Positions 25,990 through 30,310 of a stretch of DNA of 64,000 bases are shown here, piece by piece. Position 1 is the stretch's first letter. The number at the start of each line of letters is the position of its first letter. The position numbers and the translations under genes were made by a program. The notes under the pieces were generated by a model. It worked only from the letters and a program-made list of their open reading frames with translations. It made no database searches and had not been told where the DNA came from. The stretch lies in the NCBI RefSeq assembly GCF_000026545.1, contig NC_011601.1. One strand, given 5' to 3'. The DNA is from Escherichia coli O127:H6 str. E2348/69. Its GTDB lineage: Bacteria > Pseudomonadota > Gammaproteobacteria > Enterobacterales > Enterobacteriaceae.

Positions 25990-26113
25990 CATCTCTCTGT
26001 GCGCAGTACTTCCTGTATTATTGTGGTGGCGGTCGATATTCGCACTGGCAAAAAAACGTGCTTGAATATTTGTTGAAACCCTTTAACAAAGCACAGGAGG
26101 CGTTGCGCGAACG

Positions 26114-26521
26114 ATGAACATTAGCGATGTAGCAAAAATTACCGGCCTGACCAGCAAAGCCATTCGCTTCTATGAAGAGAAGGGGCTGGTGACGCCGCCG
26201 ATGCGCAGCGAAAACGGTTATCGCACCTACACGCAGCAGCATCTCAACGAACTGACCTTACTGCGCCAGGCACGCCAGGTGGGCTTTAACCTGGAGGAGA
26301 GCGGCGAACTGGTGAATCTGTTTAACGATCCGCAGCGTCACAGCGCCGACGTCAAACGTCGTACGCTGGAGAAAGTAGCGGAGATCGAACAGCATATCGA
26401 AGAACTGCAATCCATGCGTAACCAGCTGCTGGCGCTGGCGAATGCCTGTCCCGGTGATGACAGCGCCGACTGCCCGATTATCGAAAATCTCTCCGGCTGC
26501 TGTCATCATCGGGCGGGGTGA
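26114..26521 (+). CDS. cueR: MerR-family Cu(I)-responsive regulator CueR
   Basis: 135 aa, with an N-terminal MerR HTH and the C-terminal Cu-binding cysteines ([12 protein letters not shown]). Confidence 0.97.
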
Positions 26522-27282
26522 TTAAGGCTTGCGAAAATAGTCGTCCATTATTTTCGTCAGCTCCGGACGTTCCCCGTCATCATTGATGGCAAAATCCAGA
26601 AAAAAAGCATCTGCTTGCGGCGTTCGGTTTTGCGCCATCAACCGGAAGGTGAGGGGGCCTGACCAGGTTTCGGATGGGCTGATGTGCTTATCAGGGCCGA
26701 AACTCTCCCATGCGTTGGGCGGTAATGTTTTGCACGCGGTGAGTTTTGGTATGTGGTATTGCAGCTCTGTTTTGTGCAGACATTCCCCGCCAGGAAATAC
26801 CAGGGTTTGTTGCTCATCATTAAAATGGGTTGCCGTGCTGAGCACCAGTGTTTTGAGCGGTCGCCCTTCCAGCGCGGCGGCAGTAGCCTTATGGTGTCCG
26901 TCGAGCAGAACGCAGAGATAGGAATCAGGGAGATACCAGGCCAGAGCGCGGGCGATTCCAGTTTTCGAGAGCAGACAAAAACCGGGCGGCTCCCTGTTCA
27001 TCCTCCGCAAAACCGCTGTAGACAAATTCCGCACAGGTAGGGCAATCAGCCTCGGACCAGAAACGTATTAACGGGACATCCTTGCCAGCAGAGCGAATGG
27101 ATAAGACCGTGCGAGTGCGGATCGTAAATCACACATTGACGCAGAAATCCTTTCCCGGACTTCACCGAAAAAATGACGCCCGCAGCGGTATTTTTCAGCA
27201 GACGTACTTCAGGTTTTCGAAAGGGGAAAAAGCATGGCCACTCCTTAGCCAAAATTTCAGTTCCCTGAACTGTGCCAGAAAA
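26522..27282 (-). pseudogene. Degraded gene of unknown family: a 170-codon GTG-initiated ORF (26522-27034) plus an upstream 68-codon fragment (27046-27252) in another frame
   Basis: Neither piece has an ATG start with a well-placed SD. The upstream frame is open from 27282 and ends at a TGA (27046-27048). Reading through that stop gives LPYLCGICLQRFCGG before a second stop, and the downstream ORF continues in a different frame. This suggests at least two lesions. The product contains YLCVLLDGHHKATAAALEGRPLKTLVL. Confidence 0.45.
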
Positions 27283-27323
27283 TTACGCTGGTGACTATTG
27301 CTCTGGAAATGGAAACGGTGTCC

Positions 27324-27530
27324 TTACCCATTAATCCCCGTTTGCACCGAAAGAATATGCTGCAAACTTTCTACCATTATGCGCCCCGACTGAAATAAGC
27401 CTTCCTGGATTTCGTTGTTAACATTCACAGCGTGAACCAGGGAGGCTAATAACACCACTTGCAAGAAGGCAAAAATAAACGCACCGATAATCATAATATG
27501 CGTCAGGGGGATTTTCCTTTGCTCCTTCAT
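27324..27530 (-). CDS. Small single-pass membrane protein (68 aa), translationally coupled to the upstream lipoprotein gene
   Basis: Its ATG overlaps the lipoprotein stop (AAATGAAG). It has one hydrophobic helix, IMIIGAFIFAFLQVVLLASLV, preceded by basic residues. Confidence 0.6.
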   Translation of the reverse strand: MKEQRKIPLTHIMIIGAFIFAFLQVVLLASLVHAVNVNNEIQEGLFQSGRIMVESLQHILSVQTGING

Positions 27531-27949
27531 TTTAAATAACCCACAAACTGGCCTTCTTTCATTAAGGCGACTTTTCCTGTGTGATGATAAACAATGACAT
27601 TATACAGACCCGACTGATAAACAGTAGCATCTTTATTGTCTTCATCAATTACACATAATGAATCATTGAGATAAGCAAAGTTCTTACTGCTCATTCTAAA
27701 GGTCATGCCAAATCCTTTATAAATGGCTTTCTTTGCCGCCTGGGCATGTTGTGCGGCTTCTGCATTTTTAAATGCCTGCGCCTCGGATGCACTTAAAATA
27801 GCCGTCTGACGCTGTTGTTCTGCGAGGTAACAGGTGTCATGGCTGACGCCCTGCGCCTGGCAATCTGCGATGCGGGAAGTGGGTGAACTACAGCCAGCCA
27901 GTAATATAACCGCCAGCAGGGAAAACGATTTAATGGAGCTATTCATCAT
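27527..27949 (-). CDS. Lipoprotein (140 aa), unknown function
   Basis: Signal peptide with the lipobox LLAG-C (Cys20, +2 Ser). A TAAGGT SD-like sequence lies upstream. The gene starts 53 nt downstream of the autotransporter gene on the same strand. Confidence 0.75.
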   Translation of the reverse strand: MMNSSIKSFSLLAVILLAGCSSPTSRIADCQAQGVSHDTCYLAEQQRQTAILSASEAQAFKNAEAAQHAQAAKKAIYKGFGMTFRMSSKNFAYLNDSLCVIDEDNKDATVYQSGLYNVIVYHHTGKVALMKEGQFVGYLK

Positions 27950-28002
27950 TGTTAACCTTAAATAATGTGCGGAAAATTGCGAATAAGAAATTGCTGTTAA
28001 AA

Positions 28003-29019
28003 TTAGAACGAATATCCCACGCCGACACCCGCACCGAAATCAGATTGTGTATCCGCAGAAATACCTGCTTTAAGTACCGTATGCGTTCCGGCATTAAAAG
28101 ATGTTCCGACAGACACCGCAGATTCACCGTTAAAGGTTCCCGCTCCCGCTGAGACCATCATCAAGTCACCGGTTTTCACCTGTGGTTGTGAGGCGATAGC
28201 GATGGCAGATGCAGTTCCCGCATTGGCTTCTTTACGATTGTCCTCAACTTCGTTTTTTAGCGAACTGAAATGGTTATTGAGCGTGTTAATTTGCTGGCTG
28301 TTATCTGCAACCCGTTTTTGGGTGTTGGTTAACTGTTGCTGCGTTTGTGCGGAATCTTGTCTCAGACTTTCAATTTGCTCATGTGCCTGGACAGACTTCT
28401 GCGCCAGACTTTGCATTTGTTTATCGTATTGAGCCCTTTCTTTTTGCTGTTGTGCTGCCACATCGGTTGTCAGTGCATTCATTTTCTGCCCTTGTTCCGT
28501 GGTAGTGCGCTGATTAGCCTCATTTTGAGCCGCCAGCCTGGCATTAATCATCTCCTGATAATGCGCGGTATTTTGCGTATCTCCAGTCGCGGCGAGCGTT
28601 TTTTGTGTGGCTACGATCTGCGCCTGTTGCTCTGTAATTTGCGTTTGCTGGGCATCAGTTACCGTAGACTGTCGGGCGTTGATCATGCTCTGATAACGGG
28701 CGGTTGTCTGTACATCACCTGTAGCGGCAACGGTTTTTTGTCCTGCGTCAGGATCTGTCTGGACAGGGGGAGTCTGAGTGGTATCAGGTGTTTCAGAAGG
28801 GATGTAGTGATGTTCAGTCAAATAGGTATATGCAGCGGGGCTGTTGTCGGTGCGTTCTAAAAAGCGGGTAATCTTCTGCTCAATCTCCGATTGCGACATG
28901 CCCGAGTTAATGGCTGAAAGCTCTGTTGCCGCCGCTTCAATGGTATCACCAGCTAAAACAAAAGGGCTGGATGTTGCTGAAATTATGAGTGCCAGTAAAG
29001 CTACGTTTACAGTTTTCAT
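28003..29019 (-). CDS. Short, head-less trimeric autotransporter adhesin (YadA-like C-terminal membrane anchor, Gln-rich coiled-coil stalk)
   Basis: 338 aa, with the signal peptide MKTVNVALLALIISATSSPFVLA/GD. The C-terminus, ...NRKEANAGTASAIAIASQPQ...GDLMMVSAGAGTFNGESAVSVGTSFN...VLKAGISADTQSDFGAGVGVGYSF, is the canonical 4-strand YadA anchor ending in an aromatic residue. No YadA head repeats are present. Confidence 0.88.
   Translation of the reverse strand: MKTVNVALLALIISATSSPFVLAGDTIEAAATELSAINSGMSQSEIEQKITRFLERTDNSPAAYTYLTEHHYIPSETPDTTQTPPVQTDPDAGQKTVAATGDVQTTARYQSMINARQSTVTDAQQTQITEQQAQIVATQKTLAATGDTQNTAHYQEMINARLAAQNEANQRTTTEQGQKMNALTTDVAAQQQKERAQYDKQMQSLAQKSVQAHEQIESLRQDSAQTQQQLTNTQKRVADNSQQINTLNNHFSSLKNEVEDNRKEANAGTASAIAIASQPQVKTGDLMMVSAGAGTFNGESAVSVGTSFNAGTHTVLKAGISADTQSDFGAGVGVGYSF
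28537..28740 (-). repeat. Intragenic tandem repeat in the adhesin stalk (period 45 aa / 135 nt)
   Basis: QKTVAATGDVQTTARYQSMINAR (aa 94-116) is repeated as QKTLAATGDTQNTAHYQEMINAR (aa 139-161). The similarity is also visible at the DNA level. Confidence 0.8.
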
Positions 29020-29052
29020 TCATTTTCTCTCGATCAAAATAAGTTGCATTAA

Positions 29053-29069
29053 TGTTTCTATAAGAAACA
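29053..29069. promoter_or_regulatory. Inverted repeat TGTTTC-TATAA-GAAACA upstream of the adhesin gene (candidate operator)
   Basis: Read directly, 34-50 nt upstream of the adhesin ATG in an extremely AT-rich stretch. Confidence 0.4.
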
Positions 29070-29181
29070 AATAATATTGTTATTAAGAAATAAAATACGT
29101 TGCAATATGATCGAAATCTACGCCGCCATTTGTGTGATGTAAAGCGCATTTTTGTCTGTTGTAAGCGTAAATATCACCAAT

Positions 29182-29202
29182 AAGAAACAAAAAATGTTTC
29201 TT
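29182..29202. promoter_or_regulatory. Inverted repeat AAGAAACA-AAAAA-TGTTTCTT (candidate operator)
   Basis: Perfect 8-bp arms read directly. The same hexamer recurs at 29053-29069, around 29285 (CTGTTTCTGG) and around 29332 (CGTTTCTTTG). Confidence 0.4.
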
Positions 29203-29386
29203 TTATAAATTAAAAAGGAAAACATTTCGTGCTCTTTCAATGTAAAAAAGAGTAAAGACTTGTTTTGATAAGCGAAATAAATTCTGTTTCTGGACTAAAC
29301 GTGAACCGGTTCCTGATGTGTGCTAAAATGCGTTTCTTTGATAAATCTCAATTTTTAAGAGGTTTACGCCAGGCAGGAACATTTAA

Positions 29387-29749
29387 ATGAATGAATTTGA
29401 GAAGATTTTTAATGAAATGAATCTGGACCGGGCATTGCTACCGATCCTTTTTCGTTCGAACCGGTCAACAGTGTGGAAGTATTTAAGCGGCGATAGTACG
29501 GCTCCTGCCTCAGCTATGTCACTGATTATGCTGTTGCAGTTAATCCAGAAACGAAACCCCGATCTATTAGCCGAATGGTTAACGCTTTCTGATTTCACCA
29601 TTCCGCCAGAAGTTTACCTGGACCAGCCTGATTACTGGAAAGGGTGGGTGTATACCCAACACAAGGTCAATAAAAACGTCCTGGAATATCTAAAAAAACA
29701 TTATCCGGATGAAGACCAAAAAAGTATGGGTAAAGGCCGGGAAGAGTAA
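29387..29749 (+). CDS. Small putative DNA-binding protein (XRE/Cro-like HTH at the N-terminus), divergent from the adhesin operon
   Basis: 120 aa. The segment LDRALLPILFRSNRSTVWKYLSGDSTAP resembles the helix-turn-helix 'xxSxSTVxxWLSGxxxP' pattern. AGGAA lies about 9 nt upstream of the ATG. The C-terminal half is of unknown family. Confidence 0.6.
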   Translation: MNEFEKIFNEMNLDRALLPILFRSNRSTVWKYLSGDSTAPASAMSLIMLLQLIQKRNPDLLAEWLTLSDFTIPPEVYLDQPDYWKGWVYTQHKVNKNVLEYLKKHYPDEDQKSMGKGREE

Positions 29750-29771
29750 TTTTGCCTCTACTCGGCTATAT

Positions 29772-29857
29772 GCCGGATGCGGCGCAAGCGCCTTATCTGG
29801 CCTACGATTCGGGCATATTTTGTAGGCATGATAAGACGCGCCAGCGTCGCATCAGGC
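29772..29857. repeat. BIME (two inverted REP elements) at the right edge of the cueR-ybbJ island
   Basis: GCCGGATGCGGCGCAAGCGCCTTATCTGGCCTAC and GTAGGCATGATAAGACGCGCCAGCGTCGCATCAGGC. The second copy overlaps the last 6 nt of ybbJ. Confidence 0.88.
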
Positions 29858-30310
29858 GATGACCGCACGGATAATCAGCGTTATTCCTTCTATCGCAATC
29901 ACCTCAACATGCGTACCAGCGCCGAGATCCTCGCTGGCGCTGACAGGCCATGAACTGTCACCGACGCGCATATGACCGCGCCCGTTGACCAGCGGAGATT
30001 CCAGAACAAAACGTTGGCCAATCAACTGCTGCCCGCGCTGGTTTAAATGACTGTCGCTGTGCTTTTGTTCGCGCACCCGCCGCGACAACCATTTCCACCA
30101 CAGCCAGGCGGCGAGCAGCGTCAGGACGGCAAACATTACCCCTTGCCACTCCCAACCCAGCGGCAGCAACCAGACCACCAGACCGGTAATCACCGCTGCC
30201 ACGCCGCTCCACAACAGATAACCATTGCCGCCCAACATCTCGGCTGCCAGCAGCAAACCGCCGAGACTTAGCCAGAAAATATGTTGATGGACGACCATTA
30301 ACTCCATCAT
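29852..30310 (-). CDS. ybbJ: NfeD-like membrane protein YbbJ
   Basis: 152 aa; N-terminal TM helices and a C-terminal OB-like NfeD domain. It overlaps the qmcA stop by 4 nt. Confidence 0.92.

What the first reader, a model, noticed from the sequence alone, without database searches (positions are those of the whole stretch)
27324..29019. Head-less, Gln-rich mini trimeric autotransporter co-transcribed with a lipoprotein and a tiny membrane protein
The 338-aa protein has a Sec signal peptide, no YadA-type head or neck repeats, a roughly 200-aa Gln/Thr-rich predicted coiled coil with a 45-aa tandem repeat, and a textbook YadA membrane anchor ending GVGVGYSF.

A lipoprotein gene (lipobox LLAGC, +2 Ser) starts 53 nt downstream. 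It is followed by an ATGA-coupled 68-aa single-pass membrane protein.

Pairing of a trimeric autotransporter with a dedicated lipoprotein recalls SadA/SadB of Salmonella, where the lipoprotein assists surface display. Here, though, the order is reversed, the lipoprotein looks unrelated in size and sequence, and there is a third small partner. The function of such a short stalk-only adhesin is not obvious; serum resistance, autoaggregation or acting as a phage receptor decoy are possibilities.
Basis: partly seen in the sequence, partly recalled or inferred. Interest (0 to 1): 0.6.

Follow-up and report, generated by a model that had tools for sequence, protein, structure and literature searches.

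The report
Short surface fibre published as regulator

Summary
Window 28003-29019 (-) encodes a 338-aa protein with a Sec-type signal peptide and a YadA_anchor domain (Pfam E 7e-12). No head, neck or stalk family matches. A lipoprotein gene (LLAGC, Ser+2) lies 53 nt downstream, and an ATGA-coupled 68-aa single-pass membrane protein follows.

I found no significant DNA-binding domain. I consider an exported type Vc outer-membrane protein far more likely, and the motility phenotype indirect or unexplained.

"Head-less" needs qualifying: a conserved three-helix N-terminal domain precedes a Pro/Thr linker. The 338-aa form is a short allele of a 456-586-aa family.

The parts
28003..29019 (-). [not shown]
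   Evidence: Pfam YadA_anchor E 7e-12. Matches to the AtaA and Hia anchors in the PDB. AlphaFold monomer. Heptad periodicity over 200-276. The published gmrA-03 deletion primers map to 27965-28002 and 29020-29058 with no mismatch. 95% identical to the O157:H7 protein.
27527..27949 (-). [not shown]
   Evidence: ORF and lipobox. The published z0638 primer maps at 27489-27526. Family alignment with invariant Cys20 and nearly invariant Cys30 and Cys40. AlphaFold model with pLDDT 83-90 in the beta domain. No Pfam family. dN/dS 0.06.
27324..27530 (-). 68-aa single-pass membrane protein, translationally coupled to the lipoprotein by an ATGA overlap. It has a basic N-terminus, a transmembrane stretch at about 12-32, a conserved HA(V/I)N motif and a C-terminal tail of about 35 aa.
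   Evidence: ORF and overlap. Hydrophobicity. Homologues with the same coupling stand behind the lipoprotein in other Enterobacteriaceae contigs, at 42% and 33% identity. dN/dS 0.05 against O157.
29020..29386 (.). [not shown]
   Evidence: Composition profile. One sigma-70-like site on the minus strand at 29143-29115, no better than chance. The published complementing gmrA fragment appears, by my reading of the primer, to start near 29340 inside this region.
29387..29749 (+). [not shown]
   Evidence: The published z0640 primer maps at 29349-29386. Homologues of 72%, 83% and 46% identity sit in the same divergent position next to the TAA in three other contexts. Only a sub-threshold Pfam hit to the MqsA antitoxin HTH region, E 0.08. 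dN/dS 0.03.

Best explanation
The 338-aa protein is an exported type Vc (trimeric autotransporter) outer-membrane protein, not a cytoplasmic DNA-binding factor.

Inferred pathway, from what is established for the family:
- Sec export and signal-peptide cleavage after residue 23.
- Three copies each contribute four C-terminal beta strands (279-338, ending in Phe) to a 12-stranded barrel assembled by BAM.
- The preceding helix (a canonical heptad coiled coil with Asn/Gln core layers over 196-276) passes through the barrel.
- This would display a helical stalk of about 175 residues (about 25 nm if fully helical), a flexible Pro/Thr linker and a small three-helix tip domain.

Shown here: the gene belongs to a conserved module of four genes.
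- The TAA.
- A lipoprotein predicted to be sorted to the outer membrane (Ser at +2 or another non-Asp residue throughout the family).
- A translationally coupled small membrane protein. I infer N-in, C-out topology in the inner membrane.

My committed reading, which is inference: the lipoprotein and small protein act in the periplasm as an accessory pair for the fibre. They would work either during assembly, as SadB does for SadA, or as a stable partner of the barrel, as TpgA does for AtaA. I put this helper role at about 0.4.

The passenger evolves and recombines much faster than its partner genes. Alleles range from 338 to 586 aa through gain or loss of coiled-coil cassettes and of the QKTVAATGD...NAR motif. 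That is the pattern expected of an exposed surface antigen.

I take the published motility defect of gmrA mutants to be an indirect envelope-to-flagella effect, or unexplained, rather than promoter binding by this protein.
For: TAA identity:
- YadA_anchor is above Pfam's threshold and is the only significant domain in both the E2348/69 and the O157 proteins.
- The anchor matches solved TAA anchors.
- A signal peptide is present and conserved in all alleles.
- Heptad periodicity next to the anchor and a long helix in the AlphaFold model.
- RefSeq and Sakai annotate it as a YadA family adhesin, an adhesin or a Saa-like protein.

No DNA-binding domain:
- All other Pfam, NCBIfam and PADLOC hits are sub-threshold coiled-coil matches such as SMC, ATG16 and JetC.
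- One of them is TMF_DNA_bd, at E 0.21 (E2348/69) or 1.1 (O157) and 10-12 bits against a cutoff of 35.

Identity with gmrA:
- Primer mapping.
- The constructs used for EMSA and ChIP carried an N-terminal His tag on the full precursor, or a 3xFLAG tag fused straight after the terminal Phe. Both would be expected to interfere with normal export or barrel assembly.

The module:
- The same four genes occur in E. ruysiae, E. whittamii and an Escherichia clade.
- They also occur in two metagenomic Enterobacteriaceae contexts between fetA and qmcA, and in Pseudocitrobacter next to a recombinase.
- Enterobacter asburiae has the TAA plus the lipoprotein.
- dN/dS is 0.03-0.24 for all four genes. The TAA has dN about four times that of its partners, and much deeper divergence between species.

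Precedents:
- SadB is a lipoprotein with a polar coiled coil and a beta domain, and it has a solo paralogue, YajI.
- TpgA is encoded downstream of the TAA gene and binds its barrel in a 3:3 complex.
Against: - Yang et al. 2018 report that gmrA deletion lowers motility, flagellation and fliA/fliC/motA transcripts in eight strains, including E2348/69. They also report complementation, a gain of motility in K-12, an EMSA shift of the fliA promoter and ChIP-qPCR enrichment. I cannot refute those data.
- Deleting z0638 or z0640 gave no motility phenotype, and deleting the island did not change HeLa or Caco-2 adherence. No adhesin function has been shown.
- The lipoprotein family occurs without a neighbouring TAA in Pantoea, in Enterobacter and in three other contigs.
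- Its beta domain is also found fused to TolA_C-like and DUF4156 modules. That argues for a more general periplasmic role.
- Export, trimerisation, surface exposure, co-transcription and any protein-protein contact are untested.
- Residues 101-200 show no heptad signal.
Confidence: 0.72

Rival explanations
1. The published view: the protein (GmrA) is a laterally acquired transcriptional activator. It binds the fliA promoter in the cytoplasm and so switches on class III flagellar genes. On this view the YadA-type features are irrelevant, or only a fraction of the protein is exported.
For: Yang et al. 2018 report reduced motility and flagella in gmrA and OI-29 deletion mutants, complementation by gmrA but not by z0638 or z0640, an EMSA shift of PfliA but not of rpoS DNA, ChIP-qPCR enrichment, the same phenotype in eight strains and increased motility of K-12 carrying gmrA. 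Later reviews repeat this.
Against: - The protein has a conserved Sec signal peptide and an above-threshold YadA anchor. No DNA-binding family comes near significance.
- The "putative DNA-binding domain" came from a CDD hit. In my scans the only DNA-related name is a sub-threshold coiled-coil match, TMF_DNA_bd. Linking the two is my guess.
- The EMSA protein was the His-tagged full precursor. The ChIP protein carried 3xFLAG directly on the C-terminal Phe that barrel assembly needs. Both are likely to be mislocalised forms.
Confidence: 0.1
2. The TAA is real, but the lipoprotein and the 68-aa protein are an independent periplasmic module that merely travels in the same island. It could, for example, be an inhibitor or binding protein built on a small beta barrel, like the PliC/MliC lysozyme inhibitors. 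On this view it has no role in the biogenesis or anchoring of the fibre.
For: - Solo lipoprotein genes stand in at least five contexts without a TAA.
- The beta domain is combined with other periplasmic modules elsewhere.
- Deleting z0638 had no reported phenotype.
Against: - Closer homologues of the lipoprotein (63-73% identity) and two more distant ones (Pseudocitrobacter about 56-63%, Enterobacter asburiae about 39-44%) sit directly behind a homologous TAA, at three different chromosomal positions.
- SadB likewise has a solo paralogue, YajI.
- The lysozyme-inhibitor resemblance is weak. hhalign against MliC aligns only the signal peptide. Foldseek finds nothing at E below 0.001. The MliC Pfam model does not match.
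Confidence: 0.35
3. The 338-aa form is a decayed remnant of the longer 456-586-aa adhesin. It lost its functional cassette of about 125 residues by internal deletion and no longer has a surface function.
For: The commoner alleles in E. marmotae, the cryptic clades and many E. coli carry an extra coiled-coil cassette between the N-terminal domain and the QKTVAATGD motif. The short form aligns to them at 73-76% identity over its C-terminal 73%.
Against: - At least 80% of the operon is covered at 95-99% identity in 1028 complete genomes, including the O157:H7 lineage, and the sampled records annotate an intact TAA gene.
- dN/dS between the E2348/69 and O157 copies is 0.24.
- It keeps its signal peptide, N-terminal domain and anchor.
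- It is transcribed in O157, at RPKM 96 in DMEM.
- A mutant phenotype is reported.
Confidence: 0.08

Closest known systems
[not shown]
   Different: The published function, a cytoplasmic transcriptional activator, does not fit the sequence features found here: a signal peptide, a YadA anchor and no DNA-binding domain. E2348/69 also has about 0.8 kb carrying a frameshifted gene between cueR and the operon, and a shorter spacer between the TAA and lipoprotein genes (53 nt against about 85 nt).
SadA/SadB of Salmonella: a TAA with a dedicated lipoprotein export factor (Grin et al. 2014, PMC3953254).
   Same: An enterobacterial TAA gene is tightly linked to a small lipoprotein gene (44 bp spacer there, 53 bp here). 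In both cases the lipoprotein is built from a lipid anchor, a polar helix and a C-terminal beta domain. In both, the lipoprotein family also has members not linked to a TAA (YajI there; the solo copies here).
   Different: - SadB is encoded upstream. It has Asp at +2 and is an inner-membrane protein. It is a trimer with a MATH-like beta sandwich.
- Here the gene is downstream, has Ser at +2 (outer membrane predicted) and comes with a coupled 68-aa membrane protein.
- There is no sequence or fold match to SadB or YajI.
- SadA is a long multi-domain fibre with heads and necks.
AtaA/TpgA of Acinetobacter sp. Tol 5: a TAA with a periplasmic partner that binds its barrel (PMC12523085).
   Same: [quoted passage not shown] The partner acts from the periplasmic side of the outer membrane.
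   Different: TpgA has a BamE-like (SmpA/OmlA) N-terminal domain and an OmpA_C peptidoglycan-binding domain. Neither is detected in the lipoprotein here. 91% of TpgA-like genes follow a TAA gene, a much tighter linkage than I found here.
Short coiled-coil-rich TAAs of E. coli (Saa, the Eib proteins) and short YadA-anchor proteins encoded by phages.
   Same: All have a C-terminal YadA anchor preceded by a coiled coil. Phage proteins match residues of about 150-338 at 33-42% identity.
   Different: No YadA head or neck family is detected here. The N-terminal three-helix domain and the QKTVAATGD...NAR motif were seen only in this family. I did not compare directly with Saa or Eib sequences.

Membership tests
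Trimeric autotransporter adhesins (type Vc secretion) | C-terminal YadA-like membrane anchor: four beta strands per chain, ending in an aromatic residue. | tested here: met
   Pfam PF03895 matches residues 279-338 at E 7.2e-12, 45.6 bits against a cutoff of 22.7. phmmer matches the AtaA and Hia anchor structures. The terminal residues are GYSF.
Trimeric autotransporter adhesins (type Vc secretion) | N-terminal Sec signal peptide. | tested here: met
   Read from the sequence: MKTVNVALLALIISATSSPFVLA|GD. It is conserved as ...SPSAFA|GD in all alleles. No dedicated predictor was available.
Trimeric autotransporter adhesins (type Vc secretion) | Coiled-coil stalk leading directly into the anchor. 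| tested here: met
   Heptad periodicity over residues 200-276; 0 of 2000 shuffles reach the observed power. Continuous helix 148-276 with pLDDT up to 96.
Trimeric autotransporter adhesins (type Vc secretion) | Obligate homotrimer that forms a 12-stranded barrel, with the passenger exposed on the surface. | not testable with these tools
   Only a monomer model could be made, and in it the anchor is unstructured (pLDDT below 50), as expected without the trimer. Fractionation, heat-modifiability and surface-labelling experiments are needed.
Trimeric autotransporter adhesins (type Vc secretion) | YadA-type head, neck or other catalogued passenger domains, and adhesive function. | tested here: not met
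   No head, neck or stalk Pfam family matches. Deleting OI-29 did not change adherence to HeLa or Caco-2 cells. These features are common in the family but are not required for membership of the secretion type.
Bacterial DNA-binding transcription factors (the published assignment for GmrA) | A recognisable DNA-binding domain and cytoplasmic location. | tested here: not met
   No DNA-binding family reaches significance in Pfam or NCBIfam. The only such name, TMF_DNA_bd, scores 10-12 bits against a cutoff of 35 inside the coiled coil. The signal peptide and the outer-membrane anchor argue against a cytoplasmic location.
SadB/YajI lipoproteins (TAA export factor) | Sequence or fold homology to SadB; Asp at +2 (inner-membrane retention); gene upstream of the TAA gene. 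| tested here: not met
   [not shown]
TpgA-like TAA partners | SmpA/OmlA (BamE-like) N-terminal domain plus an OmpA_C peptidoglycan-binding domain; gene downstream of the TAA gene. | tested here: not met
   No SmpA_OmlA or OmpA family hit in any of 20 family members. Only the gene order is shared.
MliC/PliC lysozyme inhibitors | Eight-stranded beta barrel of the MliC family (Pfam PF09864) with the conserved lysozyme-binding loops. | tested here: inconclusive
   [not shown]

The most novel reading that the evidence does not exclude
The four-gene module would be a new kind of type Vc system. A minimal, antigenically variable fibre would be assembled or tethered by a dedicated pair, an outer-membrane lipoprotein plus a single-pass inner-membrane protein, that is unrelated to SadB or TpgA. 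The state of this envelope complex, rather than DNA binding by the fibre protein, would feed into fliA expression. That would explain the published GmrA motility phenotype as surface-to-flagella signalling and would overturn its classification as a transcription factor.
Probability: 0.15. Interest if true: 0.7.

Novelty: new member of a known kind. Interest (0 to 1): 0.55.

Why it matters
**A possible wrong entry in the regulator catalogue.** GmrA is listed in reviews of EHEC regulation, and in a survey of E. coli transcription factors, as a laterally acquired activator of flagellar genes. If it is an exported outer-membrane fibre, as its sequence indicates, that entry is wrong. The motility phenotype would then need a different mechanism.

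**Prevalence.** The operon is present in about a quarter of complete E. coli genomes (1416 of 5426). These include O157:H7, O55:H7, O145:H28, and, on the published strain list, EPEC E2348/69, EAEC 042 and ExPEC/NMEC/APEC strains such as UTI89, RS218, S88 and APEC O1. A variable surface protein in these lineages is relevant to antigen and vaccine-target lists.

**A third kind of TAA partner.** Only two TAA helper proteins are known, SadB and TpgA. The latest global survey required a YadA head domain, so it could not have seen this family. A third, unrelated partner pair would broaden the picture of type Vc biogenesis. The evidence for that role is still only partial synteny.

Tried and rejected
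- **DNA-level tandem repeat in the stalk.** Tandem Repeats Finder found nothing. The repeat is a diverged protein motif.
- **Phage origin of the lipoprotein.** tblastn against 50,697 phage records found no match. Foldseek against viral structure models found nothing significant.
- **TraV or Lpp-like identity of the lipoprotein.** The NCBIfam hits are far below their cutoffs and cover only the signal peptide, Cys and helix region. One JGI record carries the TraV name for that reason.
- **SadB or TpgA homology.** None found.
- **Anti-phage defence system.** PADLOC gave only coiled-coil noise for the TAA and nothing for the other proteins.
- **A known RNA in the island that could explain the motility phenotype.** Rfam gave only sub-threshold REP-like hits outside the operon.
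- **Promoter and terminator scan.** Counts were at chance level, so it says nothing either way about the operon structure.
- **AlphaFold database fold search.** The library was not available.
- **Large proteins hit weakly by the lipoprotein profile** (LRR and zinc-finger proteins). Judged spurious.
Full report
**What is at the coordinates**

The window is 100% identical to E. coli O127:H6 E2348/69. Between cueR (26114-26521, +) and ybbJ (29852-30310, -) lies an island of about 3.3 kb that K-12 lacks. Its G+C content falls to 30-47%.

On the minus strand it carries three ORFs:
- a 338-aa ORF at 28003-29019;
- a 140-aa ORF at 27527-27949, 53 nt further on;
- a 68-aa ORF at 27324-27530, overlapping the previous one by ATGA.

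On the plus strand, transcribed divergently from the 338-aa gene, is a 120-aa ORF (29387-29749). RefSeq also marks a frameshifted gene at 26522-27201.

**The 338-aa protein**

It begins with a typical Sec signal peptide. It matches Pfam YadA_anchor over residues 279-338 (E 7e-12, above the curated cutoff). It matches no other family significantly. The anchor aligns to the solved AtaA and Hia anchors.

An AlphaFold monomer model built on 15 family members gives this layout:
- a small three-helix domain at 27-69, pLDDT about 75;
- a disordered Pro/Thr-rich linker at 75-100;
- helices at 101-145 and 148-276;
- an unmodelled anchor, as expected for a barrel that exists only in the trimer.

Hydrophobic periodicity of 3.5 residues is very strong over 200-276 (0 of 2000 shuffles reach it). 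Leu, Ile, Val and Asn occupy the core positions. There is no such periodicity over 101-200.

The "45-aa repeat" is a 23-residue motif (QKTVAATGD..T.A.YQ.MINAR) present twice, 18/23 identical. It is not a repeat at the DNA level.

There is a small conserved N-terminal domain. A canonical coiled coil is demonstrable for only about 80 residues.

**A short allele of a variable family**

Protein search found 314 relatives. Besides near-identical 338-aa proteins, most are 456-586 aa. They come from E. coli, E. marmotae, E. ruysiae and the cryptic Escherichia clades.

They share the signal peptide, the N-terminal domain, the QKTVAATGD motif (two or three copies) and the anchor. They carry one or two extra coiled-coil cassettes of about 125 residues.

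**Distribution in E. coli**

The three-gene stretch is found in 1416 of 5426 complete E. coli genomes. In 1028 of them at least 80% of it is covered. It is always chromosomal. The carriers sampled in that search include O157:H7, the species type strain (DSM 30083 = ATCC 11775) and an APEC O78:H4 strain.

**This is O-island 29, and the gene is gmrA**

I mapped their lambda-Red primers onto the window:

| Primer | Window position | Mismatches | Consequence |
|---|---|---|---|
| gmrA-03 F (E2348/69 orthologue) | 27965-28002 | 0 | the pair brackets the 338-aa ORF exactly |
| gmrA-03 R | 29020-29058 | 0 | as above |

In O157 Sakai the same genes are ECs_0546 ("putative lipoprotein"), ECs_0548 ("adhesin", 338 aa) and ECs_0549. 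Ogura et al. 2007 list ECs0548 as a "Saa-like protein". The O157 protein is 95% identical to the one in the window.

**What the paper reports**

- Deleting OI-29 or gmrA lowers motility, the number of flagella, and fliA, fliC and motA expression.
- gmrA alone complements. Deleting z0638 or z0640 has no effect on motility.
- His-tagged GmrA shifts a fliA promoter fragment, and ChIP-qPCR shows enrichment.
- Deleting OI-29 does not change adherence to HeLa or Caco-2 cells.
- The same motility phenotype was seen in eight strains, including E2348/69.
- All three annotated genes are transcribed in DMEM and are strongly down-regulated on HeLa contact.

**Why I do not accept the transcription-factor reading as it stands**

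The "putative DNA-binding domain" came from a CDD search. In my Pfam, NCBIfam and PADLOC scans of both the E2348/69 and the O157 proteins, the only significant family is YadA_anchor. Everything else is sub-threshold coiled-coil noise such as SMC, ATG16, AAA_13 and JetC. That noise includes "TMF_DNA_bd" at 10-12 bits against a cutoff of 35. This match may be the origin of the claim, but that is my guess.

A protein with a conserved signal peptide and a barrel anchor is expected to leave the cytoplasm.

The constructs matter here:
- The EMSA protein was the full precursor with an N-terminal His tag. The cloning primer starts at the initiator ATG.
- The ChIP protein had 3xFLAG fused directly after the C-terminal Phe. 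That residue is part of the signal recognised during barrel assembly (established knowledge of outer-membrane protein biogenesis).

Both forms are likely to be mislocalised.

[quoted passage not shown] I cannot explain the motility phenotype. I regard it as real but probably indirect. In the searchable literature I found no paper that notes the conflict.

**The neighbouring genes**

- It has no Pfam family.
- Its family is small: 55 close proteins and 150 clusters at E up to 0.001 among 1.84 billion representatives.
- The lipobox Cys is invariant. The residue at +2 is Ser, Thr or Val and never Asp. By the +2 sorting rule this predicts outer-membrane localisation.
- Two further Cys residues (30 and 40) are nearly invariant.
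- The model shows a helical hairpin, a long Ala/Gln-rich helix (37-68) and an eight-stranded beta domain with pLDDT 83-90.
- SadB, YajI and TpgA do not appear in any search.
- The beta domain also occurs fused to a TolA_C-like module or to DUF4156 in other proteins.

*68-aa protein.* It has a basic N-terminus, one transmembrane stretch and a conserved HA(V/I)N motif. Homologues of 42% and 33% identity stand behind the lipoprotein in other genera, with the same kind of start/stop overlap (coordinates; alignment).

**Is the module conserved?**

Contexts of lipoprotein homologues:

| Context | Genes present |
|---|---|
| Escherichia (E. coli, E. ruysiae, E. whittamii, a clade strain), between cueR and ybbJ | all four |
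| Two distinct metagenomic Enterobacteriaceae, between fetA and qmcA | all four |
| Pseudocitrobacter faecalis, beside a serine recombinase | all four, plus an extra 588-aa gene |
| Enterobacter asburiae | TAA plus lipoprotein only |
| One short contig | lipoprotein plus small protein, at the contig end |
| Pantoea (two loci) | lipoprotein alone |
| An Enterobacter-assigned protein (metagenomic contig) | lipoprotein alone |
| Three other contigs | lipoprotein alone |

The TAAs in the linked contexts are homologous beyond the anchor. The Pseudocitrobacter protein shares the N-terminal domain. One metagenomic protein shares the QKT..GD...YQ.MVNAR motif.

Linkage is therefore real and repeated, but not exclusive. 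This resembles SadB, which has the unlinked paralogue YajI. It is looser than TpgA, where 91% of the genes follow a TAA gene. The most recent global search for TAA helpers required a YadA head domain in the adhesin, so it would not have sampled this family.

**Verdict**

- The interpretation as a short TAA is well supported. The idea of dedicated partners is plausible (about 0.4) but unproven.
- The functional guesses are untested, and the one relevant experiment (cell adherence) was negative.
That contradiction is the most useful result here. It is cheap to test by fractionation and by complementation with export-defective variants, and it affects how a gene carried by about a quarter of complete E. 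coli genomes, O157:H7 among them, is catalogued.
- As a biological entity it is a new, uncharacterised member of the TAA class with a possibly new accessory pair. It is not a new kind of system.

Noticed in passing
[not shown]
   Followed up: partly
window 26522-27201 (-), including ORFs 26522-27034 and 27046-27252: A frameshifted "hypothetical protein" gene of higher G+C (52-56%) sits between cueR and the operon. It is present in E2348/69 and strain A25, and only 135 complete genomes cover at least 80% of window 26400-29900. In O157:H7 it is absent, and cueR abuts the 68-aa gene. It has no Pfam, NCBIfam or PADLOC match.
   Followed up: partly
[not shown]
   Followed up: partly
window 26020-26117 (+), just upstream of cueR: RefSeq marks a 98-bp frameshifted, N-terminally truncated gene fragment here. 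In O157:H7 the corresponding position holds the large OI-28 locus (a gene of about 15.9 kb plus type I secretion genes, ECs_0540-0544) that ends in a HlyD-family gene overlapping cueR. The fragment may be a remnant of that locus.
   Followed up: no
phage records H21-H35, e.g. Escherichia phage ECML-606-1 69743-70402 and Erwinia phage RF1 18137-18559: Forty-five phage genomes (hosts Escherichia, Salmonella, Pantoea, Yersinia, Erwinia and others) encode proteins whose matched stretches (about 110-190 residues, 33-42% identical) align to the C-terminal coiled coil and YadA anchor. They are variously annotated as adhesin, tail protein or receptor-binding protein. What an outer-membrane anchor does in a phage is unclear.
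   Followed up: no
proteins P0252, P0245, P0316: The C-terminal beta domain of the lipoprotein (consensus ...KGYG.xV....DGKPAA.DE...A..Y..GLY.....YK.GKVALMK.G.F.GYLK) is a mobile, unnamed periplasmic domain. In other proteins it is fused to a TolA C-terminal-like domain, to DUF4156 or to other lipoprotein N-termini.
   Followed up: partly
window 27950-28002 against L014 4118-4201 and L002 3051-3135: The spacer between the TAA and lipoprotein genes is 53 nt in E2348/69 but about 85 nt in O157:H7 and most other carriers. This is why most genome matches came as two pieces. Its effect on coupling or expression is unknown.
   Followed up: no
L007 3766-5532 (Pseudocitrobacter faecalis): In this genome a 588-aa protein with no Pfam match is inserted between the 633-aa TAA gene and the lipoprotein gene. 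The whole module lies beside a serine recombinase, which suggests that it moves as an island.
   Followed up: no
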